Assembly: GCA_022647725.1 (NCBI GenBank)
Contig: JALCLG010000001.1
Location: 66,931 to 130,930, forward strand
Direction of reading: 5' to 3'
Length of the DNA: 64,000 bases
Source: Bacilli bacterium
GTDB taxonomy: Bacteria > Bacillota_I > Bacilli_A > RFN20 > CAG-288
Program-made: the position numbers and the translations under genes
Part shown: positions 5,602 to 64,000 of the stretch, piece after piece
How the letters are laid out: the number at the start of each line of letters is the position of its first letter
How positions within the stretch are numbered: the first letter of the stretch is position 1
The notes under the pieces: generated by a model
Database searches by the model: none
Seen by the model: the letters and a program-made list of their open reading frames with translations, nothing else
What the model was told of the DNA's origin: nothing

Positions 5602-7656
5602 ATGCTGACTCGTCAAAACAAATTAGCTATTTATGGTCTCTTGAGTCAAAGCTTCCAAAAGAACAGCGAGTACCCCTTAGCTAAGGTCGCTCTTTATCTA
5701 AAAGACCAGGGACTCAATTACGAGGAATACGGTTATCCCAAGATGAAGTCGCTCTTAGGCGACTTGAAAGAATTCCTCACGCTGGTAACGCACGACTCAG
5801 AAGATCATAAACGTCGGAACGAATTCGTTGTTTTTCATGATTATAAGGAAAATGCCGGCTCTTTTCAGCCGGCCATGTCGCAGCCTCATCCGCAGCAGAC
5901 TCATTCTCAGCCGGCTCCGGTGAATAATGTCACCGTAAGCCATTCGTCGCAGCCGTCTCATAACGGCCAGAAGACTGTCAGCAAAGCGGACCAGGAGAAG
6001 ATTTACGGACTCTTAAAGGATCATCTCGACCTCCATCAGGAAGCCCCGATGGCCAAGGTCTCCAAGATTCTCTTGGGCCATGAGGTCGACTATAAGGCGT
6101 TAGGGTTCTCCAAAATGAAGAACCTGCTTTCCGCTTTGCCGTTCATCCGCCTCCGGGAAGTCAATCTGAACGGCGTTCCCCAGGCCTTGGTCAGCGTCGT
6201 CGTCAAGAATAATAATACGAACCCGGCTCAGCCGGCCCGGCCCAACACCAACCGCCGGAATCCGCAGGCCTCCGCCCAGCGTCATAATCCGCTGCCTGCT
6301 TCCAATAACAACAAACCTCAGACCCGTCCGACTCCGAACGCGAAACCGCAGGTTTCGCATCCGGCCCCCAGCGTAAAAACAACGCCGGCTCCGACTCCGG
6401 CCCCAACCGCGCCGGCTGCCGTCCATCCGATTCCGGTCAAGGAAGATCCGGTCTTCGAAGAAATGGAGCCGAAAGACATTTCCATTCCGGAGAAGCTGAT
6501 TCTCTCCTTGAAGGAGACTACCGGCTTAGGCCTCGATAACGGATCCTTCACGGATCTCATCATCGAAGATCTCAACAGTGCCATCAAGAGCAATACCTTG
6601 GTATCCCGGGAGGATGCCTTCCTCTTTCCGCTGTCGCTGAAGACCAAGACCGGCGAACGGCTTTTGGGTTCCTTCAAAGAGGCTGCCCATGGCTGCAGCT
6701 ATGGCTACTACATCAACTTCATCGGCACCGACAAGGAAAAGCCTCGCGATATCCTGAAGAGTCAGATTCATTTCGATGATTATGATGCCGCCGTCAAATC
6801 CTTGGCCGACTTAGCCAAGAAGGAGAGCTGGGGCTATCTGCATTCGAAGGATCCTTACATCATTCTGAAGATCTACCTGCAGTATACCTACTACCGGATT
6901 GCCTCCCAGAATAAGGTGATGGTCGATGAACAAAGCGGCTTCGCGTCGTTCAATACCGGACTGGTCACTCCCAACTATGACGACATCTACTGTGTCCTTT
7001 TGAAGAACAAGGATGCCTCCATTGACGAGACCTATCTTTTCCAGGGCTTCACCGTCAGTGGCAGCCAAGGATTCGGTAAGGTTATTGTTGAGCATTTCTC
7101 ACCGCTTCCGGAAAAAGCAACTTATATTGAAAAGCCGGAAGATATTTACTTTGATACCACTAAGCCTATCCATACCGACTATAACCACATCATCAGCGAC
7201 AACCTCTCCCGCTTCCCGCTGGATTTCCTGAAGACGCTGATTGTCTCCTTCCCGGATGAGAACAAGCTGCTCACCCAGATTGAGAAGACCAACAACGACT
7301 ATGCCCGCGACCGTCTCTTCACCAAACTGGAAGACGATGTCATCAAGAACAGTACCCTCTTCACGATTCTGAAGGCCTGCTTCGACAGCGCCGTCGAAAC
7401 CTCCCTGAAGATGGCTCGCTATGATTTTAGGACGGTTCTTCCTTCCTTCTTCCCGACCCGCAACGTCATGTCGATGATGCTGCCTCTGGTCTTTGACAAG
7501 TCCAAAGGTCCGCAGGCCGTGCTTTTGGTGGAGCTGACCCCCAGCGGCAACTACCAGGGACAGACGATTCTGACCCTGAAGCAGTGCTATGCCAATGCCC
7601 GGATCATCGCCCCGGTCGAAAACACCTTCCTCCGCGCGGAGGACATCGAGGACTAG
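5602..7656 (+). CDS. protein with two OST-HTH/LOTUS-like N-terminal repeats, a Pro/Gln-rich linker and a DUF3825-like C-terminal domain
   Basis: 684 aa. Internal repeat: KLAIYGLL...YPLAKVALYLKDQGLNYEEYGYPKMKSLLGDL matches EKIYGLLKD...APMAKVSKILLGHEVDYKALGFSKMKNLLSAL. Residues ~200-265 are P/A/Q/N-rich. The domain names come from memory of Pfam families, not from a search. Confidence 0.7.
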   Translation: MLTRQNKLAIYGLLSQSFQKNSEYPLAKVALYLKDQGLNYEEYGYPKMKSLLGDLKEFLTLVTHDSEDHKRRNEFVVFHDYKENAGSFQPAMSQPHPQQTHSQPAPVNNVTVSHSSQPSHNGQKTVSKADQEKIYGLLKDHLDLHQEAPMAKVSKILLGHEVDYKALGFSKMKNLLSALPFIRLREVNLNGVPQALVSVVVKNNNTNPAQPARPNTNRRNPQASAQRHNPLPASNNNKPQTRPTPNAKPQVSHPAPSVKTTPAPTPAPTAPAAVHPIPVKEDPVFEEMEPKDISIPEKLILSLKETTGLGLDNGSFTDLIIEDLNSAIKSNTLVSREDAFLFPLSLKTKTGERLLGSFKEAAHGCSYGYYINFIGTDKEKPRDILKSQIHFDDYDAAVKSLADLAKKESWGYLHSKDPYIILKIYLQYTYYRIASQNKVMVDEQSGFASFNTGLVTPNYDDIYCVLLKNKDASIDETYLFQGFTVSGSQGFGKVIVEHFSPLPEKATYIEKPEDIYFDTTKPIHTDYNHIISDNLSRFPLDFLKTLIVSFPDENKLLTQIEKTNNDYARDRLFTKLEDDVIKNSTLFTILKACFDSAVETSLKMARYDFRTVLPSFFPTRNVMSMMLPLVFDKSKGPQAVLLVELTPSGNYQGQTILTLKQCYANARIIAPVENTFLRAEDIED

Positions 7657-7657
7657 C

Positions 7658-8140
7658 ATGGTCCTGAGAACAGCAAGGCTTCTTCTCAGGGCAGTCGATT
7701 CCGGCGATAGTGCGCTTTATGAAAGTCTCAGAAAAGATGAGTTTTCTGGGACTTTTTTTGCGGTTAGGAATCATGGGCCTCGCTCTTTTAAAGAAATCCT
7801 GGCTTTATCGGGATCCAATGCCCTTTTTTATGGAACAATCTGCTATCTTAAAAGCGGGCTCCCGCACGGATTCTTCCTGGTGGAGAAGAATCCTAGCTAT
7901 ACTCTTTTATCCTTCTTGGCCCCCAAAGACCACCAGGGCCATGGCTATTGCAAGGAAGCCTTAAGTGCTCTCTTGAAAGCCAGTCTCGACGGCCGGCCCG
8001 ACGGCCAGGTGCTGCTGTTAGTCAGTTCGAAACATCCCTGGGATTACCATCTTGGCCTGACCTTAGGCTTCCATGACCTGGATCCCGATCTGGTGACGCC
8101 GGGGAAGAAGATTCTGACCCTCTTCGGAGAGCTGGTATGA
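7658..8140 (+). CDS. GNAT-family N-acetyltransferase (RimJ/RimL-like)
   Basis: ATG at 7658, 1 nt after the upstream TAG. N-terminal TARLLLR signature and HQGHGYCKEAL loop. The ORF-track start at 7589 lies inside the upstream gene. Confidence 0.65.
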   Translation: MVLRTARLLLRAVDSGDSALYESLRKDEFSGTFFAVRNHGPRSFKEILALSGSNALFYGTICYLKSGLPHGFFLVEKNPSYTLLSFLAPKDHQGHGYCKEALSALLKASLDGRPDGQVLLLVSSKHPWDYHLGLTLGFHDLDPDLVTPGKKILTLFGELV

Positions 8141-8170
8141 AAAAAGCTGCCTCGCGGGCAGCTTCTTTCA
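8141..8170. terminator. bidirectional terminator between the GNAT gene and mnmG
   Basis: AAAAAA-GCTGCC-TCGCG-GGCAGC-TTCTTT hairpin between convergent genes. Confidence 0.7.
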
Positions 8171-10081
8171 TTTCTTAGGTTCGTCTTTCTTCAGCGTGTA
8201 ATCCTGATAGCGGACATGGAAGGAGAGACAGTCGATGTCGGCCGGATGGACGTTGGTGATGCGGCTGGCTTCGCCTAAGGTCTTCGGCCGGAAGAGATCC
8301 AGCTTTTCCCTGGCTTCCAGGGAGAGGCCATCCATATGCTTGTAGTCAATTCCCTCCGGTAAAGGCAGGGATTCATAGCTTTCACGGCGCTCACAGTCCT
8401 TCCGTTCCTGCTCAATATAGCCTTCATAGCGGACTTCCGTCTCCAGCTTGAAGGCTTGTTCGTCATCGAGTTGGGGGAGATCGGGAAGGCAGGTCTTCAG
8501 TCCCTGATAGGTGACGTTCTGGCGCTTCAGGGTCTGTTTCAGAGTCTCGTTGCCGTTGGGTTCCGGGAAGCCTAAGGACTTCAGGTAATCCCGGACAGGC
8601 GTCTTAGAGGCAATCTGCTCATGGTCCAACAACTCAATGGTCTTGGTGATGGCTTCGTTGCGGCTGTTCAGGCGGTCAAAGCGTTCCTTGGGGACCAGGC
8701 CGACATCATAGCCCTTCTTGAGAAGACGGACATCGGCATTGTCGTTGCGGGTGATAAGACGGTACTCGCTTCGGCTGGACAGCAGCCGGTACGGTTCATG
8801 GGTGCCCTTGGTGACAAGGTCATCGATCATGATGCCGATATAGGCTTCATCCCGGGCTAAGACGAGCGGCTTTCTGCCTTCGATCCAGAGGGCGGCATTG
8901 ATGCCGGCCATCAGACCTAAGGCGGCGGCTTCCTCATAGCCGGACGTGCCGGCTATCTGACCGCAGACATAGACGCCCTGATAACCTTTGACGGCCATCG
9001 TGTGATCCAGCTGACTGGGTTCGACGGCATCATATTCAATGGCATAGGCATACTTCAGGAATTCGGCATGCTCAAGTCCGGGCAGGGAATGGACCATCTC
9101 GGTCTGAACCTCCACCGGCATCGACGTCGAGAATCCCTGCAGGTAGATGGAATCGAATTCCAGGGATTCCGGCTCGAGGAAAAGCTGATGTCTCTTCTTA
9201 TCCGCAAAGCGGACAACCTTATCCTCAATCGAGGGACAGTAGCGAGGTCCGACGCCTTTAACAACTCCGCCATACATGGCGGAATCGAGGAGGTGGGCAC
9301 GGATGATCTCATGGGTGTGTTCGGTCGTATACGTCAGATAGCACTTCACCATCTCGGACTGCGGCATGAACCAGGTGGTATCGTAGCTGAAAGCATACTT
9401 GCCGCTATCGCCTAACTCGACTTCAAGATGGGAATAGTCGATGGAATCCGGTTTGATCCGCGGCGGGGTGCCGGTCTTGAGACGGAGCATGTTGAGACCG
9501 AGATTGCTGATGGTCTTGGATAAGCCATGCGAGGGTCTTTCGCCATCCGGTCCTTCATCCTTGGCCACATGGCCACGGAGAATCCTGGCTTCCATATGCG
9601 TGCCGGTAGCTAAAATAACCGCCTTGGCATGGAGATAGGTCCCATCTTCTAAAATAACGCCATCGGCCATCTTGTCTTTGACGACCAGGGCCTTGGCTTC
9701 ATGCTCGGCGATGTCGAGATTGTCGACCGTCAGCAAATAGTTCTGGACATTCCGGGGATAGCCGCGCTTATCTTCCTGCGCCCGGTAGCAGCGTACCCCA
9801 GGGCCTTTGGAGGTATTGAGAACCTTCATCTGGAGAATGGAGCCCTTCATATCGGCTAGTTTTGCCATGATGCCGCCGAGCGCATCCATCTCCCGGACGA
9901 CTATGCCTTTGGCGGAACCGCCGATGGTGGGATTGCAGGCCATATTGGAGACCATCTTGTAATTCAGGCAAAGCATCAGGGTCTTCAAACCTAAGGCCGC
10001 ACACGCATGGGCTGCCTCTACGCCGGCATGACCGCCGCCGACGACGATGACGTCATACTCCTTAGCCATCTGATTGAACAT
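8168..10081 (-). CDS. mnmG: tRNA uridine-5-carboxymethylaminomethyl synthesis enzyme MnmG (GidA)
   Basis: 637 aa. N-terminal FAD fold YDVIVVGGGHAGVEAA. Full-length collinearity with the MnmG family as I recall it. Confidence 0.95.
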   Translation of the reverse strand: MFNQMAKEYDVIVVGGGHAGVEAAHACAALGLKTLMLCLNYKMVSNMACNPTIGGSAKGIVVREMDALGGIMAKLADMKGSILQMKVLNTSKGPGVRCYRAQEDKRGYPRNVQNYLLTVDNLDIAEHEAKALVVKDKMADGVILEDGTYLHAKAVILATGTHMEARILRGHVAKDEGPDGERPSHGLSKTISNLGLNMLRLKTGTPPRIKPDSIDYSHLEVELGDSGKYAFSYDTTWFMPQSEMVKCYLTYTTEHTHEIIRAHLLDSAMYGGVVKGVGPRYCPSIEDKVVRFADKKRHQLFLEPESLEFDSIYLQGFSTSMPVEVQTEMVHSLPGLEHAEFLKYAYAIEYDAVEPSQLDHTMAVKGYQGVYVCGQIAGTSGYEEAAALGLMAGINAALWIEGRKPLVLARDEAYIGIMIDDLVTKGTHEPYRLLSSRSEYRLITRNDNADVRLLKKGYDVGLVPKERFDRLNSRNEAITKTIELLDHEQIASKTPVRDYLKSLGFPEPNGNETLKQTLKRQNVTYQGLKTCLPDLPQLDDEQAFKLETEVRYEGYIEQERKDCERRESYESLPLPEGIDYKHMDGLSLEAREKLDLFRPKTLGEASRITNVHPADIDCLSFHVRYQDYTLKKDEPKK

Positions 10082-10102
10082 AGTTCTTGGTTTCTTCTTC
10101 GG

Positions 10103-11515
10103 TTAACCGATGGATCCATTCATATCGAATTTGATCAGCTGATTGAGCTCGACGGCATATTCCATCGGAAGCTCCTTGCTGAACGGCTCAAGGAAGCCCA
10201 TCACGATCATCTGCGTCGCGCCGGCTTTGGAAAGCCCGCGGGACATCAGGTAATAGAGCTGGTCTTCGTTGATCTTGCTGACGGAAGCCTCATGTTCGAG
10301 GTAGGAGGTCGCGTTCTCCACGACATTATGCGGAATGGTATCGGAATAGGAATGGTCGTCCAGAATCAGGGTATCGCACTCTTCGTGAGCCTTGGAACCG
10401 GTCGCCAACGGCGAAATCCGGATCTGGCCGCGGAAATTGGCGGTGCCGCCATTGCGGGCGATGGACTTGGAGATGATGGTCGACGAGGTATCCTTGCCGA
10501 GATGGATCATCTTGGCCCCGGTATCCTGCATCTGGCCCTGACTGGCCACGGCCACCGAGATCACGCTGCCCCGGCTGCGGTCACCTTTGAGGACACAGCA
10601 AGGATATTTCATGCAGGTCTTGCTGCCGATATTGCCATCGACCCATTCCATCAGGCCGTCGTCATCGACGATGGCGCGCTGGGTGACGAGGTTCAGAATG
10701 GAGTTGGACCAGTTCTGAATGGTGGTATAACGCATCTTGGCACGCTTGCCAACGAAGATCTCGACGATGGCGGCATGGAGGGACTCTTCGGAATACATCG
10801 GGGCGGTGCAGCCTTCGACATAGGTGAGCTCGGCATCGTCATCGACGATGATGAGCGTCCGCTCAAACTGTCCGGAACGGCGGTTGTTGATGCGGAAATA
10901 GGACTGCAGCGGCTTTTCCAGATGGCAGCCTTTCGGAACATAGATGAAAGAGCCGCCCGACCAGACGGCGCTGTTGAGAGCCGCATACTTGTTGTCAGCC
11001 GGCGGAACCAGCTTGCCGAAATACTTCTTGAAGATCTCCGGATACTGCTTCAGTCCCGAATCGGTATCCAGGAAGATGACGCCTTTCTCTTCGACTTCCT
11101 TCAGCATGTTGGAATAGACGGCTTCCGACTCATACTGGGTGGTGACGCCGGAAAGGAACTTCTGCTCCGCTTCCGGAATGCCAAGCTTGGCAAAGGTGTT
11201 CTTGACGGTGGAAGGGACTTCCTTCCAATCGGTGGCAATCTTGTCGCTGACCTTGGTGTAGTAGGTATAATCCTGGAAATTGATGCCGGAAAGATCCGGT
11301 CCGAAGGTCGGCTGATGATGATGGAAGAACTCTTTAAGGGACTTGAGACGGAAGTCGAGCATGAACTCCGGTTCGCCTTTCATCTTGGAGATGGTACGGA
11401 CCGTCTCCTCATCCAGACCTTTCGGGGTCTTGAAAATAGCGACATCCTTGTCCTGGAATTCGTACTTGGCCCGGTCATCGCTATCCAAAAGCTTCTTTTC
11501 CTGATCTTTATTCAT
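10103..11515 (-). CDS. sufB: Fe-S cluster assembly protein SufB
   Basis: 470 aa. Last gene of a sufC-D-S-U-B array. Conserved C-terminal [10 protein letters not shown]...A block. Confidence 0.95.
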
Positions 11516-58469: not shown

Positions 58470-58694
58470 GGTTTGAAGCTCCTTTGGCTTAGCTTGCTTT
58501 GATTATAACCTATTTGACCTTGCTTTCAGCTAGGAAAACAGCGTTGAAGATAAGGAGACGTTGAAAGACGTCAAGGAAAAGAGAAGACTTTGTTTTTCCG
58601 GAAAAGCCTATGGTAGACTTGAAGCGCGAGGAAATTCTTTTGGGTCTGGAGATAATCTCTCCTCCTCAGTAAGAATCAAAGGGTTTTCAGGAAC

Positions 58695-60185
58695 ATGACT
58701 TTACAGGATTGTCTTATCGCCTACGATGAGAAAACACCCAGCCATGTTTTTTTACGCGATGAAAAGGAAAGCTACACGATTCATGAGACGAGACTCTTTG
58801 TGGAAAATTTCACCCGGAGTCTCTCTTCCTCTGGCATCCAAGCCCAGGATCTGGTGGCTTTGAAAGCCGACCGCACCAAAGAGACCTTCCTTCTTTTCTT
58901 AGCCTTGCAGGCCCTGGGTGCTATTTCCTTACTGACGGATGCCCATTTATCCATCCAAGACTATCTTGCCAAAGAGAAAATCCATTTAAAGCCGGCTTTC
59001 CAGATTGAAAAGGATAGCCAGGGTCAGCTGAGGCTTTCGGATACGAAAGGTCATCAGGTTCCTTTGATCTTCTCCCAGAAAACAAATCCAGATGCTAAAC
59101 CTTTCTCTGAAATCTGTTCCCAGGACGGCTCGGTCGGAACGATTCTGATTCATACCTCCGGATCGACCGGCAAAGCCAAAGGTGTCTTCCTGTCCCAGGA
59201 AGCCTTCATCCGCAATTCTCAGGACACCTTTGCCTTAGCCGATTACCGTCCGGATGATGTGGCCTTAGCCTTTTTGCCTTTTCATCATGTCTTCGGCCTG
59301 GCTTTAGGCATCACGGCCTTAGTCAACCAGCATTCTCTTTTCTTCCCCTCGGTCACGGACCCCTTAGCGTTAGTGAAAGCCATTCAGACCTATGGCGTCA
59401 CCCGGATGAACGGCGTCCCAACCCTGTATCTGGATATGGCCAAAGCCAAAACAGAGAATCATCTGCCGTTAACCTGTCTCCGGACTGGTCTGATCGGCGG
59501 CGGTCCCTGGACCGAAAGCCAGTTCGGCTGGATCGAAAAGACCTTAGGCATCCATCTGATTCCGGTCTATGGCATGAGCGAATGCATCGCCATCAGCTGC
59601 GGACGGAGCCAGGATCCCTTGACGTACCGTCAAGGCTCCGTGGGTCCGTTCTATCCCCAGAACGAAGGCCTTTTCCTCGGGCCGGACGGAAGCCGTCTTC
59701 CCTTAGGTCAGACCGGCGAGATTGCCGTTAAGAGTCCGTTCATGATGACGGACTATTATCAGGATCCGGAAGAGACGAAAGCCTGTTTCACCAAGGATGG
59801 GTATCTGCTGACCGGTGATCTCGGTTATCTGGATAAGCTTGGCTTCCTGCATCTCTGTGGCCGGCGCAAGGACCTGATCATCCGGGCCGGAGAGAACATT
59901 GCTCCGTTAGCGGTTGAAAACGCCCTCTTATCCTTAGACGGCATTGAGCAGGCCTGTGTCTTCGCTGTCCCTTCTTTCCGGCTAGGAGAGAAGGTCAGCT
60001 GTGCCGTGGTTCTGAAGAAAGGCTCTTCGTTGACGGTCCGTCAGATTCAGGAGGCCTTAAAGCCGTTACTCACCAAGAATGAGATTCCGGAAACCATCCA
60101 TCTGCTTGGTAAGCTTCCTCTGCTGGCTAGCGGCAAAGTCGATAAGCAGTCCCTCAAAGAGACCTACGCGGCCGATGGAAAATAG
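58695..60185 (+). CDS. AMP-dependent acyl-CoA synthetase/ligase
   Basis: 496 aa. AMP-binding motif IHTSGSTGKAKGV, GDLG...D core and a C-terminal GK(V)D. Confidence 0.9.
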   Translation: MTLQDCLIAYDEKTPSHVFLRDEKESYTIHETRLFVENFTRSLSSSGIQAQDLVALKADRTKETFLLFLALQALGAISLLTDAHLSIQDYLAKEKIHLKPAFQIEKDSQGQLRLSDTKGHQVPLIFSQKTNPDAKPFSEICSQDGSVGTILIHTSGSTGKAKGVFLSQEAFIRNSQDTFALADYRPDDVALAFLPFHHVFGLALGITALVNQHSLFFPSVTDPLALVKAIQTYGVTRMNGVPTLYLDMAKAKTENHLPLTCLRTGLIGGGPWTESQFGWIEKTLGIHLIPVYGMSECIAISCGRSQDPLTYRQGSVGPFYPQNEGLFLGPDGSRLPLGQTGEIAVKSPFMMTDYYQDPEETKACFTKDGYLLTGDLGYLDKLGFLHLCGRRKDLIIRAGENIAPLAVENALLSLDGIEQACVFAVPSFRLGEKVSCAVVLKKGSSLTVRQIQEALKPLLTKNEIPETIHLLGKLPLLASGKVDKQSLKETYAADGK

Positions 60186-60590
60186 GACGTTTTGCTGAAA
60201 ATAGTTGATTTGCCAATTGAATAACGCCTGGCTAAATGATATATTTTTAGTTGCCTTTGCCTCTGTGTTGAAATTGGTATACAAGGCGGATTCAAAAGAA
60301 ACTCAAAAGAGTCTCGGGTCGCCAAAAACGCAATTTCAAAAAAGCCCGATATCATCGAACTTATTGAGATTACGCCAAACGAGGGCTGAGTGGAAAAAGC
60401 CACTAAAATGGCAAAATTACCCCTAAATTTCCACTCAAATGACTAAAAGCAGGGTCGAATTTACCTGAAATCAGTCAAAAAATAGGGGTGTTCAGAAAAA
60501 TTCGGATGTGACTGATTCGGTTCGTGTTGGTTCGTTAACACTTAAAAGAGTTTCGCTCCAAAAAAATGGTAGTGGAGCGCTGTATAAGTG

Positions 60591-60599
60591 TGATAGAAT
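60591..60599 (+). promoter_or_regulatory. extended -10 element upstream of tRNA-Leu
   Basis: TGaTAGAAT, 9 nt before the mature tRNA 5' end. No good -35. Confidence 0.4.
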
Positions 60600-60608
60600 C
60601 TCACTTAT

Positions 60609-60694
60609 GCAGGTGTGGCGTAATGGCAGCCGCGACAGACTCAAAATCTGTTGAACGTGAGTTCGTGAGGGTTCAACTCCCTCCACCTGCACCA
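60609..60694 (+). tRNA. tRNA-Leu (anticodon CAA)
   Basis: 86 nt. Acceptor GCAGGUG/CACCUGC, anticodon loop CUCAAAA, long variable arm, T-loop UUCAACU, CCA. Confidence 0.9.
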
Positions 60695-60707
60695 GATTTA
60701 AAGACCT

Positions 60708-60744
60708 AACCTCTTAGCTTAAACAACTAGGAGGTTTTTGTTTT
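60708..60744 (+). terminator. hairpin plus T-run after tRNA-Leu, overlapping the SD of the next gene
   Basis: AACCTC-n17-GAGGTT followed by TTTTGTTTT. The 3' arm is part of the AGGAGG SD of the AP2 gene. Confidence 0.45.
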
Positions 60745-61560
60745 ATGGATAAAGAAAAAGATTATGAGCATCGTCATTTGGGTTATGACCGTTATAAAGG
60801 AACAAGAATCAGCCAGATTGACCCTAACAGGCAATTATCAAGGCTTAATAAGTCTGGATGCTCTGGAGTCAGTTGGGACTCTAAATTCAATATGTGGAAG
60901 GCTCACTTCCGTTTTCAAGGAGTTCATTACTGGGTTGGAAGATTCGCGGAACTTGATGATGCTATAAAAGCCACAAAAGAAAAGAAGGAGGCATTGTACT
61001 CATTAGTTCTTTCTGAGCATCCAGTAAAAACAAAGGCAAGTATAAAGCATCTTCCTGGAACTACTATTGTTGACCTTACGGGTGTGAAGAAACCTCATTA
61101 TGAAGTCATCAAGTTTGCCGGAAGAGACAGAACCACATGTAGATGGGTTTGCAGATGTGAGTGTGGAAATACCTTTATAGCTACTTCCTCAGAGATTAAA
61201 AATGACAAAATAATATCTTGTGGGTGTGTGAGTGAAGAACGAAAGACTTATTCGTATCATCTATTCAGCAATTACAAAGATATCTTTGTCGATGGCACTA
61301 ACCTTTATAGCATGAATAAGAATGTCCCTTATTTAAGCAATGAGACATCTAAAGTCAGAGGCGTATATAAGCCAAGAAGAGGATCATGGTACGCAAAACT
61401 AACTTTTCAAGGTGTAGACCATCGCATTAAATGTGCTACAAAAGAAGAAGCTATAAAAGCCAGGGCAAGATTAGAGCAAGAGTATTACCTTCCTTTTATG
61501 AAGAAACATAGAAAAATCATGACTAAAGTAAAAAGAGCAGAAAGAAGTATGGTAAGATAA
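60745..61560 (+). CDS. double AP2-domain protein with a central CxCxCG...SCGC zinc ribbon
   Basis: 271 aa. AP2-like blocks SGVSWDSKFNMWKAHFRFQGVHYWVGRFAELDDAIKA and VRGVYKPRRGSWYAKLTFQGVDHRIKCATKEEAIKA. Cys cluster CRWVCRCECGN...SCGC. Confidence 0.75.
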   Translation: MDKEKDYEHRHLGYDRYKGTRISQIDPNRQLSRLNKSGCSGVSWDSKFNMWKAHFRFQGVHYWVGRFAELDDAIKATKEKKEALYSLVLSEHPVKTKASIKHLPGTTIVDLTGVKKPHYEVIKFAGRDRTTCRWVCRCECGNTFIATSSEIKNDKIISCGCVSEERKTYSYHLFSNYKDIFVDGTNLYSMNKNVPYLSNETSKVRGVYKPRRGSWYAKLTFQGVDHRIKCATKEEAIKARARLEQEYYLPFMKKHRKIMTKVKRAERSMVR

Positions 61561-61687
61561 ATATGCGTCATCTAGAGGGCGTATGACCTTTGGCCATTTG
61601 GTGTTAGCAATAACAATCACGTGTTTCATGCAGGATCCTAAGGCACGTTAAATGTTAGTGTCCTGGTGTGCATCACCTTAAAGGCAG

Positions 61688-61728
61688 AAGCCTTGTTGAG
61701 CTTATGTTTGATAAGGCTTTTATTTTTT
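61688..61728 (+). terminator. candidate terminator after the AP2 gene
   Basis: AAGCCTT-n18-AAGGCTT followed by TTATTTTTT. Confidence 0.45.
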
Positions 61729-61768
61729 AAAAAAATAGTAAAAAAACTATGTATTCCAACGATAAAAG

Positions 61769-61777
61769 TGCTATAAT
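61769..61777 (+). promoter_or_regulatory. perfect extended -10 promoter for the XRE/helicase pair
   Basis: TGcTATAAT, 28 nt upstream of ATG 61806. Confidence 0.6.
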
Positions 61778-61805
61778 CATGCTATAAGTCAATTAGAGGT
61801 TAAAT

Positions 61806-62024
61806 ATGAACTGGGCAAAACTCTTAAAAGATGTACGAACAATACTTGTTTTAACCCAAACAGAGATGGCAAATTATCTCGGTGTATCTTTTGCTTCGGT
61901 AAATAGATGGGAAAATGGGCATTGCGAACCAACTATGAAGGTAAAACGCAAACTTAAACAAGTTTGTAAAGATAATAATTTAAGCTTTGAATCTTATTTT
62001 TTGATTCAACCGGAAAGAAAATAG
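61806..62024 (+). CDS. XRE-family helix-turn-helix regulator
   Basis: 72 aa. LTQTEMANYLGVSFASVNRWENG HTH. AGAGGT SD upstream. Confidence 0.8.
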   Translation: MNWAKLLKDVRTILVLTQTEMANYLGVSFASVNRWENGHCEPTMKVKRKLKQVCKDNNLSFESYFLIQPERK

Positions 62025-62033
62025 GGTGGAACA

Positions 62034-64000
62034 ATGGCTTCATTTATAGACAACAAAACCAAATTACTTGGAGATGATTTGAAAAGTGACATTACTGTTG
62101 GAAGCAAAGTGCAAATAGTTGCTTCTTATTTTTCAATCTACGCTTACCAAGCATTAAAAGAAGCCCTAAAAGATATTAATGAGTTTGATTTCATCTTCTC
62201 TGAGCCCACATTTGTTGAAAATGAGATAAAGGGCTCTTTTAAGAAAGAAGCAAAAGAATTTTTCATCCCAAAGCAATTCAGAGAAAACGCCTTATATGGA
62301 ACCGAGTTTGAGATAAAACTTAGAAACCAAATGACGCAAAAGGCTATAGCGAAAGAATGCGCCGACTGGATTAAAGAAAAAGCGCATTTTAAGTCAAATA
62401 CATCCGATTCTAAGTTGCCCAATTTTATATCTGTTGATAATGGAATATCTAAAGCGGCTTATACAGGAATAGAAGGACTAAGTGCTTCTGATCTTGGGTA
62501 TGAACATAACGATAATCTTTATACAATCATTCAAAAAAGTGAAAATGATGAAACATCAAAGCATTTGTTTGAGTTATTTAATAAATTAAATCAGGATTCA
62601 CAGACTTTTAAGGATGTAACAGATTCTATAGTTGATTACATTTCTAATGTTTATAAAGAGAATCCGCCTTCCTTCATTTATTTTGTTACTCTTTATAATA
62701 TTTTCTCTGAATTTTTAGATGACTTGTTAAGTGAAGATTATATGCCTAATGACTTAACAAATTACAAAGATTCGATTGTTTGGAAAAAGCTATATGCGTT
62801 TCAAAGGGATGGAGCAGTTGGAGTAATAAACAAATTAGAAAAATACAACGGTTGCATTCTTGCTGATTCTGTTGGCTTAGGAAAAACTTTCACTGCTTTA
62901 GCAGTAATGAAATATTATTCAAATCGAAATAAGAATATTTTAGTTCTTGCCCCAAAAAGACTATCTGATAACTGGGCTCAGTATAAAAACAATGTTAAAA
63001 CAAACCTTTTCTATAATGACCATATTAGGTTTGATCTTCTTTATCACACTGATTTAGGGAGAAAAACCGGCAAGTCTGGTGACATCGATTTATCACAATT
63101 CAATTGGGGCAATTATGACTTAATTGTTATCGATGAGTCTCATAATTTCAGAAATGTCGGGCAATATAGAGATAGAGAGACAAGATACGATTTTCTCTTA
63201 AAGCATGTTATTGAGGAAGGCGTGAAAACAAAAGTGTTAATGCTTTCCGCCACCCCTGTAAACAACAGGTTTACGGATTTAAAAAACCAGTTGGCTTTAG
63301 CTTATGGCGAAAATCCAACCGAATTTGACGATAAACTTGATACCGCTAAAGGTGTTGACCTTGTTTTAAGAAATGCTCAAAGGGTGTTTAATGAATGGAG
63401 CAAATTGCCAAAAGCACAGCGTCATTCCAAAGACCTAATGGATAGATTAGATATTGATTTTTCAATCTTATTAGACAATGTGACAATCGCAAGAAGCAGA
63501 AAACATATTACCAAATACTATGATATGTCTGAAATTGGCAGCTTCCCAAAAAGGAAAACGCCTATTTCCTATTATATTGATGTTGCCGATAGAAGCGAGA
63601 CAATTGGATACAACGAACTGTTTGATAATTTGATGCAACTTACACAAGCTGTTTATGCTCCTATGGACTATATTCTTCCAAGCAGGTTGAAAAAATATGA
63701 AGAAAAATATGATGTTAAAGTAGGTAACGCTACTTTAAAACAAGTCAATCGTGAAAAAGCTCTTCAGCGACTTATGACAATAAATCTTTTGAAGAGACTC
63801 GAATCTTGTGTGGATTCATTTAGAATCACTCTAAAGAAAATTGCTTCCGTAAATGAAGATACTTTAAAAGCCATTCTTGCTTTCAAAAATAAAGAAAGTT
63901 TTGACCAGTCACATGATTTTTCAAACATCGATGTTGATGAATACGATAATGAAGAAGATTTCGACATCGATGAAGATAGTGGAACTTTAGGCAAAGTAAA
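62034..64000 (+). CDS. SNF2-family helicase with a ~260-aa N-terminal PLD/HKD-pattern region (3'-truncated by the window)
   Basis: Hand translation is open from ATG 62034 to the window end (655 codons) and is missing from the ORF track because it has no stop. Motif I LADSVGLGKT, motif II VIDESHNFRN, motif III LMLSATPVNN. N-terminal VQIVASYFSIY and an HFKSNTSD (HxKxxxxD) pattern. Confidence 0.8.
   Translation, partial: MASFIDNKTKLLGDDLKSDITVGSKVQIVASYFSIYAYQALKEALKDINEFDFIFSEPTFVENEIKGSFKKEAKEFFIPKQFRENALYGTEFEIKLRNQMTQKAIAKECADWIKEKAHFKSNTSDSKLPNFISVDNGISKAAYTGIEGLSASDLGYEHNDNLYTIIQKSENDETSKHLFELFNKLNQDSQTFKDVTDSIVDYISNVYKENPPSFIYFVTLYNIFSEFLDDLLSEDYMPNDLTNYKDSIVWKKLYAFQRDGAVGVINKLEKYNGCILADSVGLGKTFTALAVMKYYSNRNKNILVLAPKRLSDNWAQYKNNVKTNLFYNDHIRFDLLYHTDLGRKTGKSGDIDLSQFNWGNYDLIVIDESHNFRNVGQYRDRETRYDFLLKHVIEEGVKTKVLMLSATPVNNRFTDLKNQLALAYGENPTEFDDKLDTAKGVDLVLRNAQRVFNEWSKLPKAQRHSKDLMDRLDIDFSILLDNVTIARSRKHITKYYDMSEIGSFPKRKTPISYYIDVADRSETIGYNELFDNLMQLTQAVYAPMDYILPSRLKKYEEKYDVKVGNATLKQVNREKALQRLMTINLLKRLESCVDSFRITLKKIASVNEDTLKAILAFKNKESFDQSHDFSNIDVDEYDNEEDFDIDEDSGTLGKV

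What the first reader, a model, noticed from the sequence alone, without database searches (positions are those of the whole stretch)
62034..64000. Unlisted long ORF: HKD-pattern N-terminus fused to an SNF2 helicase, paired with an XRE regulator
The six-frame track misses this ORF because it runs off the window. My translation gives at least 655 codons with SNF2 motifs I, II and III in frame (GLGKT at about 62880, DESH at 63132, SATP at about 63250). The first ~260 aa are not helicase-like. They contain a VQIVASYFSIY beta-strand-type start and one HxKxxxxD match (HFKSNTSD, 62385-62408), as in phospholipase-D-family nucleases. PLD-nuclease plus SNF2 combinations are known components of several anti-phage systems such as DISARM-type loci. 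Here the gene sits in a tRNA island behind its own HTH regulator with no methylase yet in view. Whether it belongs to a known or a new system depends on the missing downstream genes.
Basis: partly seen in the sequence, partly recalled or inferred. Interest (0 to 1): 0.7.

Follow-up and report, generated by a model that had tools for sequence, protein, structure and literature searches.

The report
Helicase partner of type III restriction system
The open reading frame is real, but its "HKD nuclease motif" is a chance match: the gene encodes an SNF2 motor protein with a dead phospholipase-D-like domain, and it opens a widespread but unstudied four-gene version of a type III restriction-modification system.

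Summary
The ORF (62034-64000, 655 codons, no stop) and SNF2 motifs I-III are confirmed at the stated coordinates. A contig 98.6% identical to the window continues it to 1,089 aa. That contig also supplies the missing genes: HTH, SNF2, DUF4391, two type III Mod methyltransferases, then the start of a type III Res.

The N-terminal domain does have a phospholipase-D fold. Its best structural matches are SauUSI and NgoAVII. However, HFKSNTSD is fortuitous: His118 occurs in 3 of 198 relatives. It also lies one strand upstream of the true catalytic position, which reads L-P-N here. The GSxN element is missing too. A relative with an intact motif shows what was lost.

The cassette SNF2-DUF4391-Mod-Res is conserved. 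DUF4391 follows the helicase in 71 of 71 loci, Mod in 62 of 63, and Res in 52 of 53. It occurs in at least 586 species and 123 plasmids.

It is therefore not DISARM and not a PLD nuclease effector. It is a type III restriction-modification system with a conserved, uncharacterised helicase/DUF4391 accessory pair. No paper I could search describes that pair. How it works is inferred, not shown.

The parts
60609..60694 (+). tRNA-Leu(CAA); left boundary of the low-GC island
   Evidence: ARAGORN. GC drops from about 0.50 to 0.32-0.35 downstream of it.
60745..61560 (+). 271-aa island ORF: two AP2-type DNA-binding repeats flanking a Cys-rich zinc-ribbon-like segment, with no HNH domain. Probably a remnant or cargo of a mobile element, not part of the restriction cassette.
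   Evidence: PHROGs HNH-endonuclease families match only their AP2/DNA-binding portions (phrog_374 E 4e-27, phrog_99 E 7e-24). Pfam AP2 is weak. The same gene sits at the same place in L001.
61686..61721 (+). Terminator-like hairpin plus T-run that separates the 271-aa ORF from the HTH-SNF2 transcription unit
   Evidence: Consensus scan. This is a pattern match only.
61769..61787 (+). Direct repeat TGCTATAA / TGCTATAA (61769-61776 and 61780-61787, 11 bp apart). Each copy resembles an extended -10 element. Candidate promoter or operator of the cassette.
   Evidence: Read directly from the sequence. Its function is inferred and was not tested.
61806..62024 (+). 72-aa XRE-family helix-turn-helix regulator, 9 nt upstream of the helicase gene
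   Evidence: Pfam HTH_3 E 1.2e-6, above cutoff; PADLOC HTH_VI E 4e-7. A homologous HTH is in the same position in L004 (44% identity). An annotated HTH regulator of similar size sits in the same position in Lactococcus plasmid L087. In other loci the upstream regulator is HTH_17, HTH_26 or WYL instead.
62034..64000 (+). First 655 of about 1,089 codons of the PLD-fold + SNF2 ATPase protein (PADLOC family C3a139, 'HKD+Snf2')
   Evidence: Translation. P0001 is 99% identical and 1,089 aa long. PADLOC PDLC01075 E 3e-56 for the fragment and 4.6e-105 over 1-947/948 for the full length.
62034..62663 (+). N-terminal PLD-fold domain (about aa 1-210), predicted catalytically inactive
   Evidence: AF2 model, pLDDT 71.9 with the core above 85. 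Foldseek: SauUSI 7clg E 1e-5, NgoAVII 4rct E 2e-5, PssA, TDP1, PLD3. Homolog P0245 hits Pfam PLDc_2 at E 6e-11.
62385..62408 (+).
   Evidence: Model strand E117-122.
62415..62441 (+). aa 128-136, LPNFISVDN: the segment that aligns with the genuine HxK(x)4[D/Q] strand (LHAKMYHIQN) of the HKD-intact relative. Asn130 replaces the catalytic Lys, and the catalytic His falls in a one-residue gap between Leu128 and Pro129.
   Evidence: Alignments A2 and nt.aln. Model strand E131-135.
62874..62888 (+). SNF2/SF2 motif I (Walker A), GLGKT
   Evidence: Invariant in 29 of 29 and 21 of 21 aligned homologs.
63132..63143 (+). Motif II (Walker B), DESH
   Evidence: E368 and S369 are invariant; D367 and H370 are conserved in at least 90%.
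63246..63257 (+). Motif III, SATP
   Evidence: Conserved in at least 90%.

Best explanation
The ORF is the 5' 60% of a roughly 1,089-aa protein. That protein has a catalytically degenerate phospholipase-D-fold domain (about aa 1-210), an intact SNF2-type ATPase core (about aa 250-860) and an uncharacterised C-terminal domain. It is the first structural gene of a tightly packed, co-directional cassette: XRE regulator, SNF2 protein, DUF4391 protein, type III Mod (two copies here, with different target-recognition domains), type III Res. The cassette lies in a low-GC island beside tRNA-Leu.

Shown: the domain composition, the loss of the HKD catalytic residues, the intact ATPase motifs, and the near-invariant four-gene linkage across phyla and plasmids.

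Inferred mechanism: Mod methylates its asymmetric site to mark self DNA. Mod-Res recognises unmethylated sites, and the PD-(D/E)xK domain of Res does the cutting. The SNF2 protein, working with DUF4391, acts as an ATP-driven double-strand DNA translocase or remodeller that cooperates with Mod-Res on foreign DNA, for example by clearing bound proteins or supplying directional movement. Its dead PLD domain would serve as a dimerisation or DNA-binding module rather than a nuclease. The HTH gene probably controls expression of the cassette.

My confidence differs by claim: about 0.9 for identity and genomic context, about 0.75 for functional coupling to the type III system, and about 0.35 for the specific translocase-helper role.
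For: The ORF and motifs are confirmed. Full length and downstream genes come from L001, which matches window 58514-64000 at 98.6% nucleotide identity with no gaps. In L001 the genes are separated by 2-12 nt or overlap. The downstream genes hit PADLOC MTase_III at E 4e-185 and 1e-190, and the first 66 aa of the next gene match REase_III at E 6e-6, the same model that the full Res of L002 hits at E 3e-295. In GTDB species genomes, at least 586 loci encode a relative. Among the 80 fetched, DUF4391 follows the helicase in 71 of 71, type III Mod in 62 of 63 and Res in 52 of 53, all on the same strand. The same order is annotated on E. coli, Enterobacter and Lactococcus plasmids, and 123 PLSDB plasmids carry a homolog. 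For the PLD fold, see Foldseek and the PLDc_2 hit in homolog P0245, which sits in the same operon. For loss of catalytic residues. The ATPase motifs I-III are conserved across the family, and Helicase_C is detected in the full-length protein and in 18 of 21 diverse relatives scanned.
Against: The window stops at codon 655, so every downstream gene is inferred from a near-identical contig, not from the window itself. Nothing here shows that the SNF2 and DUF4391 proteins physically or functionally interact with Mod-Res. In 19 of 66 loci, 0.6-4 kb of other genes separate DUF4391 from Mod. One locus (L057) has SNF2-DUF4391 without recognisable Mod or Res, so the pair may be a separable module. The DUF4391 model is confident (pLDDT 89) but has no structural match, and the C-terminal domain of the helicase gave no sequence match. 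There is therefore no positive clue to the biochemical role. Classical type III enzymes need no extra helicase. Inactivity of the PLD domain is predicted from an alignment and a medium-confidence model (pLDDT 71.9), not measured.
Confidence: 0.7

Rival explanations
1. The N-terminus is an active HKD (PLD-family) nuclease fused to an SNF2 motor, making a nuclease-helicase effector like SauUSI, the DISARM PLD component or the Type-2 BREX-related helicase.
For: The fold is PLD-like, with best matches to restriction nucleases. PADLOC labels the family 'HKD+Snf2' (from Shah 2018, PMC6546367). One relative, P0245, keeps H-x-K and GSSN and passes Pfam PLDc_2. HKD-Snf2 effectors are described for Type-2 BR systems (PMC12839542).
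Against: HFKSNTSD is not conserved (His in 3 of 198) and lies on the strand before the catalytic one. At the aligned catalytic positions the window protein has Leu/Pro/Asn and G-I-E-G in place of H-x-K and GSxN. Zero of 198 family members, and 1 of 125 representatives, have the canonical motif. The window protein gets no Pfam PLDc hit even at E of 1 or less. The cassette already encodes a nuclease, the RE_endonuc domain of Res.
Confidence: 0.07
2. SNF2 + DUF4391 is a self-contained two-gene defence system. It merely travels next to type III R-M genes as a defence-island neighbour or co-selected pair, and does not work with Mod-Res.
For: L057 carries SNF2-DUF4391 with different downstream genes. 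In 19 of 66 loci, unrelated genes are inserted between DUF4391 and Mod, for example an ATP-dependent endonuclease plus DUF2130 in L085. The family was first flagged next to type III CRISPR-Cas loci.
Against: Linkage to type III Mod (62 of 63) and Res (52 of 53) holds across Pseudomonadota, Bacillota, Actinomycetota, Verrucomicrobiota, Planctomycetota and other phyla, always on the same strand and in the same order. Spacing is operon-like. Without an active nuclease domain, the pair has no evident effector of its own.
Confidence: 0.15
3. It is a housekeeping SNF2/RapA-like remodeller or a type III CRISPR-Cas accessory protein (the meaning of the C3a139 label).
For: There is weak similarity to RapA and DrmD ATPase cores. 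The PADLOC family name derives from a CRISPR-accessory survey.
Against: The gene lies in a low-GC island and its relatives are carried on plasmids. The E. coli plasmid allele is present in only 10 of 5,426 complete E. coli genomes, by near-identity search only. RapA scores 44.5 bits against a cutoff of 576. No cas genes appear among the called genes of L001, L002 or L084; the neighbours are R-M genes.
Confidence: 0.03

Closest known systems
Classical type III restriction-modification systems (EcoP1I, EcoP15I; Mod + Res)
   Same: The downstream genes are bona fide type III Mod (N6_N4_Mtase; PADLOC MTase_III E about 1e-185) and Res (ResIII + RE_endonuc; NCBIfam PRK15483 E 5e-107, below its curated cutoff, for the L002 ortholog). 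The expected logic is also the same: asymmetric-site methylation and ATP-dependent restriction.
   Different: Two extra, almost invariably linked genes precede Mod: a 1,089-aa PLD-fold/SNF2 protein and a roughly 230-aa DUF4391 protein. Neither the 2014 historical review of type III enzymes (PMC3874151) nor the 2025 lactococcal R-M survey (PMC12418389) mentions them.
SauUSI (type IV, PLD nuclease + SF2 helicase; PDB 7clg)
   Same: It is the best structural match of the N-terminal domain (Foldseek E 1e-5), and the domain order is the same: PLD fold, then helicase-like ATPase.
   Different: SauUSI has an active HKD site, a non-SNF2 helicase and an SRA-like reader, and it acts alone on modified DNA. 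Here the HKD site is lost, the motor is SNF2-type, and the gene is tied to a methyltransferase and a Res nuclease.
Type-2 BREX-related (BR) systems / Hma: HKD-Swi2/Snf2 helicase + N6-MTase + DUF499 ATPase + small DUF3780 protein (PMC12839542; Hma PMC11232893)
   Same: Both have an N-terminal PLD-family domain fused to an SNF2 motor, a neighbouring adenine methyltransferase and a small conserved protein of unknown fold. Both tolerate other defence genes embedded in the locus.
   Different: No DUF499/BrxC-like ATPase and no DUF3780 were found. HmaA matches only the helicase C-lobe (E 1e-20, against 4.6e-105 for C3a139). The nuclease here is a separate type III Res, and the PLD domain is degenerate rather than the primary effector.
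DISARM class 1 (DrmD SNF2 helicase, DrmMI, DrmA, DrmB, DrmC-PLD)
   Same: It combines an SNF2-family ATPase, an adenine methyltransferase and a PLD-family domain in one defence locus.
   Different: DrmD models score 130.6 and 87.3 bits against cutoffs of 610 and 950. There is no DrmA or DrmB (DUF1998). The PLD domain is fused and inactive rather than a separate DrmC.
Lactococcal AbiR (AbiRc: SauUSI-like N-terminal domain + Snf2-like ATPase; requires the LlaKR2I methylase)
   Same: According to the 2026 review (PMC13064643), AbiRc has the same two-domain architecture. AbiR also depends on a cognate methylase and is toxic without it.
   Different: Its partners differ (sigma70-like AbiRa and ParB-like AbiRb; a type II methylase). 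I could not obtain the AbiRc sequence, so homology was not tested.
PADLOC PDLC01075 'C3a139' (Shah et al. 2018 type III CRISPR accessory candidate, exemplar Tthe_0931)
   Same: End-to-end HMM match (1-947 of 948, E 4.6e-105). This is the protein family to which the ORF belongs.
   Different: The label implies an HKD nuclease and a CRISPR association. Neither applies here: the motif is lost and the neighbours are type III R-M genes.

Membership tests
PLD / HKD nuclease superfamily | PLD alpha/beta fold | tested here: met
   AF2 model of aa 1-262 (pLDDT 71.9). Foldseek top hits are all PLD-superfamily: SauUSI E 1e-5, NgoAVII 2e-5, PssA, TDP1, PLD3.
PLD / HKD nuclease superfamily | Conserved catalytic HxK(x)4D(x)6GSxN motif | tested here: not met
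   The only HxKxxxxD (aa 118-125) is non-conserved and misplaced. The aligned catalytic positions read L/P/N and GIEG.
PLD / HKD nuclease superfamily | Match to Pfam PLDc / PLDc_2 profile | tested here: not met
   No PLDc hit for the window protein at E of 1 or less. Homolog P0245 does hit PLDc_2 (42.7 bits against 27), which establishes common ancestry.
SNF2-family (SF2) ATPase | Motifs I, II and III in the N-lobe, and a profile match above cutoff | tested here: met
   GLGKT, DESH and SATP. SNF2-rel_dom scores 42.6 bits against 24.9.
SNF2-family (SF2) ATPase | C-lobe (Helicase_C, motifs IV-VI) | tested here: met
   This lies outside the window. In the 99%-identical P0001, Helicase_C is E 6.7e-13 at aa 711-836, and QRFGRIDRIG is conserved in the family consensus of the close homologs.
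Type III restriction-modification system | Mod: N6-adenine/N4-cytosine methyltransferase of type III architecture | tested here: met
   L001 genes 7435-9372 and 9375-11306: Pfam N6_N4_Mtase, PADLOC MTase_III E 4e-185 and 1e-190. This comes from a 98.6%-identical contig, not from the window.
Type III restriction-modification system | Res: SF2 ATPase + C-terminal PD-(D/E)xK endonuclease | tested here: met
   L001 holds only the first 66 aa (REase_III E 6e-6). Full Res is present in L002 (E 3e-295; ResIII + RE_endonuc) and in 52 of 53 other loci.
Type III restriction-modification system | Two-gene sufficiency (Mod + Res only) | tested here: not met
   The cassette carries two further conserved genes, SNF2 and DUF4391 (71 of 71 loci). 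Whether they are required is not testable here.
DISARM | DrmA helicase + DrmB (DUF1998) core, plus DrmD above the model cutoff | tested here: not met
   No such genes appear in L001, L002 or L084. DrmD scores 130.6 bits against 610.
Type-2 BREX-related / Hma systems | DUF499 (BrxC-like) ATPase and DUF3780 next to the HKD-Snf2 helicase | tested here: not met
   Precomputed Pfam families listed for the called genes of L001, L002 and L084 include neither. HmaA matches only aa 630-839.
Type III CRISPR-Cas accessory (C3a139) | Full-length match to PDLC01075 | tested here: met
   E 4.6e-105, profile 1-947 of 948.
Type III CRISPR-Cas accessory (C3a139) | Adjacency to a type III cas cassette | tested here: not met
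   No cas families among the called genes of L001, L002 or L084. The downstream neighbours in 80 loci are R-M genes.
R-M controller (C) protein | Small XRE HTH directly upstream, with a palindromic or repeated operator at its own promoter | tested here: inconclusive
   HTH_3 is above cutoff, but the PADLOC Control_protein match is only E 0.046. A TGCTATAA direct repeat lies upstream and was not tested. The regulator family varies between loci.

The most novel reading that the evidence does not exclude
The SNF2(dead-PLD)/DUF4391 pair converts a type III enzyme into a mechanistically distinct four-component restriction machine. One possibility is that a true translocase is recruited by Mod-Res to unmethylated DNA, allowing restriction of targets classical type III enzymes cannot cut (single or head-to-tail sites, protein-coated or modified phage DNA) or resisting anti-restriction proteins. 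DUF4391 would then be a new-fold adaptor. The rare HKD-intact relatives would be the ancestral nuclease-helicase state.
Probability: 0.3. Interest if true: 0.7.

Novelty: new variant of a known kind. Interest (0 to 1): 0.45.

Why it matters
Type III restriction enzymes are textbook two-subunit machines. Their "helicase" domain acts as a switch for one-dimensional diffusion rather than as a motor. A large and phylogenetically broad subset of type III systems always carries a genuine SNF2 motor with a decayed nuclease domain, plus a protein of unknown fold. This subset spans at least 586 species and includes plasmids of Listeria, Enterococcus, Bacillus, Lactococcus, Acinetobacter and E. coli. 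Defence-annotation tools count only Mod and Res, and one of them mislabels the helicase as a CRISPR accessory 'HKD' nuclease. If the pair proves to be required, it would define a new sub-type of restriction-modification. It would also bear on how R-M, DISARM, BREX-related and SauUSI-like systems exchange modules. For this particular window the practical message is more modest: the locus is an ordinary member of that widespread cassette, not a new PLD-nuclease system.

Tried and rejected
- **Sequence search for a solved relative.** A family profile of the N-terminal domain, a profile of the C-terminal 245 aa and the HKD-intact homolog were each searched against PDB sequences. Only generic SNF2 cores were found.
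- **DUF4391 function.** A high-confidence AF2 model (pLDDT 89) gave no significant Foldseek match in PDB or BFVD. PADLOC, NCBIfam and PHROGs gave no hits.
- **Literature.** 'DUF4391' returned two irrelevant papers, one apparently a typo for DUF7941. 'PF14335' returned none. COG co-mentions, 'type III + SNF2' and Listeria plasmid searches found no description of the cassette. The 2014 historical review of type III enzymes (PMC3874151) does not mention accessory genes.
- **AbiR.** Yang et al. 2006 on AbiR is not held, so AbiRc homology could not be tested.
- **DISARM, Zorya ZorD, Dpd DpdE, BREX BrxH, RapA.** All match only the ATPase core, far below the NCBIfam cutoffs or far weaker than the family's own PADLOC model. 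Rejected.
- **Promoter scan.** It found nothing above shuffle expectation. The extended -10-like repeat was read by eye only.
- **Exceptional locus L057.** Its partner ORFs gave no PDB sequence match and no methyltransferase motif.
Full report
**1. The observation**

The frame from ATG 62034 to the last base of the window is open for 655 codons. It is preceded by a GGTGG Shine-Dalgarno sequence.

- GLGKT, aa 281-285, nt 62874-62888
- DESH, aa 367-370, nt 63132-63143
- SATP, aa 405-408, nt 63246-63257
- HFKSNTSD, aa 118-125, nt 62385-62408

Pfam places SNF2-rel_dom and ResIII above their gathering cutoffs at aa 257-410 and finds nothing in the first 250 residues. The upstream 72-aa ORF (61806-62024) is an XRE-type HTH. 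tRNA-Leu(CAA) lies at 60609-60694. GC drops from about 50% to 32-35% immediately after it. The genes upstream of the tRNA are ordinary chromosomal ones: an AMP-binding enzyme, a CoA-transferase, two-component systems and Hsp33. So the ORF, the SNF2 assignment, the regulator and the island context are all real.

**2. The rest of the gene and its neighbours**

The protein has thousands of relatives of about 1,087 aa. The closest, P0001, is 99% identical and 1,089 aa long. It lies on an 11.5-kb metagenomic contig, L001, that overlaps window 58514-64000 at 98.6% nucleotide identity without gaps. L001 contains the same AMP-binding gene, 271-aa ORF and HTH as the window, so it is a close variant of the same locus.

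Downstream of the helicase gene, separated by 2-12 nt or overlapping, L001 carries:
- a 233-aa DUF4391 protein;
- two type III Mod methyltransferases of 645 and 643 aa (PADLOC MTase_III E 4e-185 and 1e-190);
- the first 66 codons of a type III Res (REase_III E 6e-6).

The two Mods share about 52% identity in their N- and C-terminal thirds and have unrelated middles, so their target-recognition domains differ. A 74%-identical relative lies in the cassette SNF2, DUF4391, Mod, full-length Res (ResIII + RE_endonuc, E 3e-295), HEPN-domain ORF.

**3. How general the arrangement is**

A scan of one genome per GTDB species found at least 586 loci encoding a relative. The 80 kept are full-length, 50-63% identical, and come from many phyla, including Pseudomonadota, Bacillota, Actinomycetota, Verrucomicrobiota, Planctomycetota and Acidobacteriota.

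Among loci with enough downstream DNA:

| Gene after the helicase | Loci with it |
|---|---|
| DUF4391 ORF | 71 of 71 |
| Type III Mod | 62 of 63 |
| Type III Res | 52 of 53 |

All are on the same strand. Ten ORFs that tblastn had missed scored Pfam E 1e-31 to 1e-62 for DUF4391.

In 19 of 66 loci, 0.6-4 kb of extra genes sit between DUF4391 and Mod. On an Enterobacter plasmid the insert is an ATP-dependent endonuclease plus a DUF2130 protein.

123 PLSDB plasmids carry a homolog, from Listeria, Enterococcus, Bacillus, Escherichia, Acinetobacter and Lactococcus. RefSeq annotates the four genes as 'helicase-related / SNF2-related protein', 'DUF4391 domain-containing protein', 'site-specific DNA-methyltransferase' and 'DEAD/DEAH box helicase family protein'. 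A lactococcal plasmid reproduces the window's layout, with a small HTH regulator gene in the same upstream position and two Mod genes.

The upstream regulator is frequent but variable. Among the 54 upstream ORFs scanned (53 homologous loci plus the window's own), there are 8 HTH_17, 6 HTH_26, 4 HTH_3 and 3 WYL.

**4. The N-terminal domain**

- His118 is K/R/Q/T/V in 26 of 29 homologs of at least 64% identity, and is present in 3 of 198 family members, all from the window's own lineage.
- At least one such match arises in 8.4% of shuffles of this protein.

Even so, the domain is PLD-related.
- A 36%-identical family member, P0245 (E 8e-37 over aa 4-259), passes Pfam PLDc_2 (42.7 bits against 27) and matches the NgoFVII PLD domain.
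- Its genuine motif, LHAKMYHIQN...IIGSSNLT, aligns to L128-P129-N130-FISVDN...TGIE-GLS in the window protein.
- P0245 sits in the same SNF2-DUF4391-Mod-Res operon.
- An AlphaFold2 model of aa 1-262 has mean pLDDT 71.9, with the core strands above 85. Its best PDB matches are SauUSI (E 1e-5), NgoAVII R protein (2e-5), phosphatidylserine synthase, TDP1 and PLD3.
- In the model, HFKSN forms strand 117-122. The strand equivalent to the catalytic one is 131-135.

Only 1 of 125 cluster representatives, and 0 of 198 other members, keep H-x-K plus GSxN. The domain is therefore a PLD fold whose catalytic residues have been lost in nearly the whole family. Other positions remain invariant among close homologs, including D6, N7, F33, E93, C109, W112 and G155. 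This fits a retained non-catalytic role, which is my inference.

**5. The motor and the remaining parts**

Motifs I-III are conserved across the family, and Helicase_C is detected in the full-length protein and in 18 of 21 diverse relatives scanned. This points to a working ATPase.

The last roughly 245 residues gave no sequence match to any solved structure.

DUF4391 models confidently (pLDDT 89, pTM 0.80) as an alpha/beta domain followed by long helices. It has no significant structural neighbour in PDB or BFVD and no hit in PADLOC, NCBIfam or PHROGs.

**6. What it most likely does**

Shown: the gene is the helicase member of a conserved four-gene cassette whose other recognisable parts are a type III Mod and Res. 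Its nuclease-like domain lacks the catalytic residues. Its ATPase is intact.

Inferred: Mod marks self DNA, and Res cuts with its PD-(D/E)xK domain. The SNF2 protein, together with DUF4391, supplies ATP-driven translocation or remodelling that cooperates with Mod-Res on unmethylated DNA. The dead PLD domain acts in dimerisation or DNA binding. PLD nucleases such as SauUSI work as dimers; I take that from established knowledge, not from a test here. The HTH controls expression.

The near-absolute linkage and operon-like packing support functional coupling, which I put at about 0.75. The specific role of the pair is a guess, at about 0.35.

The main rival is that SNF2-DUF4391 is a separable module. 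One locus, L057, pairs them with other genes, and its DUF4391 is fused to a roughly 500-aa helical tail. The embedded cargo in 19 loci points the same way.

**7. Comparison with known systems**

- **PADLOC family.** The family has a PADLOC model, PDLC01075 'C3a139, HKD+Snf2', which the full-length protein matches end to end (E 4.6e-105). The label comes from a 2018 survey of genes near type III CRISPR-Cas cassettes (PMC6546367). Neither the 'HKD' nor the CRISPR association holds here.
- **DISARM, Zorya, Dpd, BREX-helicase and RapA.** These models hit only the ATPase core and fall far below their cutoffs.
- **Type-2 BREX-related systems** (PMC12839542). This is the nearest described concept: an HKD-Snf2 helicase with an N6-methyltransferase, a DUF499 ATPase and a small DUF3780 protein. 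The window's cassette lacks DUF499 and DUF3780 and uses a type III Res.
- **Lactococcal AbiR** (PMC13064643). Its AbiRc has a SauUSI-like N-domain plus an Snf2 ATPase and depends on a methylase. Homology could not be tested.
- **Literature coverage.** The reviews and surveys of type III systems that I could read do not mention the two extra genes. 'DUF4391' and 'PF14335' return nothing relevant.

**8. Verdict**

The locus is an ordinary member of a widespread cassette, best described as a variant of type III restriction-modification with an uncharacterised helicase/DUF4391 accessory pair. The cassette as a class is under-described and worth an experiment. This instance adds no feature beyond its relatives.

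The main caveat is that everything beyond codon 655 rests on a 98.6%-identical contig rather than on the window itself.

Noticed in passing
window 60745-61560 (+): The 271-aa ORF directly after tRNA-Leu has two AP2-type DNA-binding repeats around a Cys-rich segment. It matches only the DNA-binding parts of phage HNH endonuclease families (phrog_374 E 4e-27, phrog_99 E 7e-24) and has no HNH domain. It may be a stand-alone DNA binder or the remnant of a homing endonuclease.
   Followed up: partly
window 61769-61787 (+): TGCTATAA is repeated 11 bp apart, about 20-37 nt upstream of the HTH start codon. Each copy looks like an extended -10 element, so this may be the promoter or operator of the cassette. 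The consensus promoter scan did not report it.
   Followed up: no
window 60609-64000: GC content falls sharply from about 50% to 32-35% at tRNA-Leu(CAA). No integrase is visible before the window ends, nor in the 11.5-kb contig L001.
   Followed up: partly
L001 7435-11306: There are two tandem type III Mod genes. Their N- and C-terminal thirds are about 52% identical and their central (target-recognition) regions are unrelated. The system may therefore methylate two different sites.
   Followed up: partly
L085 13003-16295 (Enterobacter plasmid pAR0468_1) and 18 other loci: Other genes are embedded between DUF4391 and Mod in 19 of 66 loci. In L085 these are an 'ATP-dependent endonuclease' plus a DUF2130 protein. 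The cassette seems to tolerate, or attract, inserted defence-like cargo.
   Followed up: partly
L057 9995-20045 (Pseudoxanthomonas sp. Root630): This is the only locus without recognisable Mod or Res. DUF4391 is fused to a roughly 500-aa helical extension and is followed by 582-aa and 949-aa ORFs with no PDB sequence match and no methyltransferase motif.
   Followed up: partly
L002 16497-16949: A 150-aa HEPN-domain ORF (Pfam E 1e-4, just above cutoff) lies directly after Res in the 74%-identical relative's cassette.
   Followed up: no
protein P0214 (802 aa, cluster representative): This representative joins the PLD-like N-terminus and the start of the SNF2 core to a C-terminal RE_endonuc domain (E 9e-35) of the Res type. 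It could be a natural deletion fusion between the first and last genes of the cassette, or an assembly artefact.
   Followed up: no
L085 8099-9004; H17, H18: In the Enterobacter plasmid (L085) a WYL-domain regulator gene, rather than an XRE HTH, ends at the helicase start codon. WYL-domain genes are also annotated adjoining the helicase on the Citrobacter and Raoultella plasmids. Regulators of different families occupy the same slot in other loci.
   Followed up: partly
PHROGs phrog_26785: A phage protein family of unknown function (profile length 1,087) matches the N-terminal domain at E 9e-27. The helicase family is therefore also found in phage or prophage genomes.
   Followed up: no
bioRxiv 10.64898/2026.04.21.720040: The two mentions of 'DUF4391' in the Goslar phage structure preprint appear to be slips for DUF7941. 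They are unrelated to the protein discussed here.
   Followed up: yes
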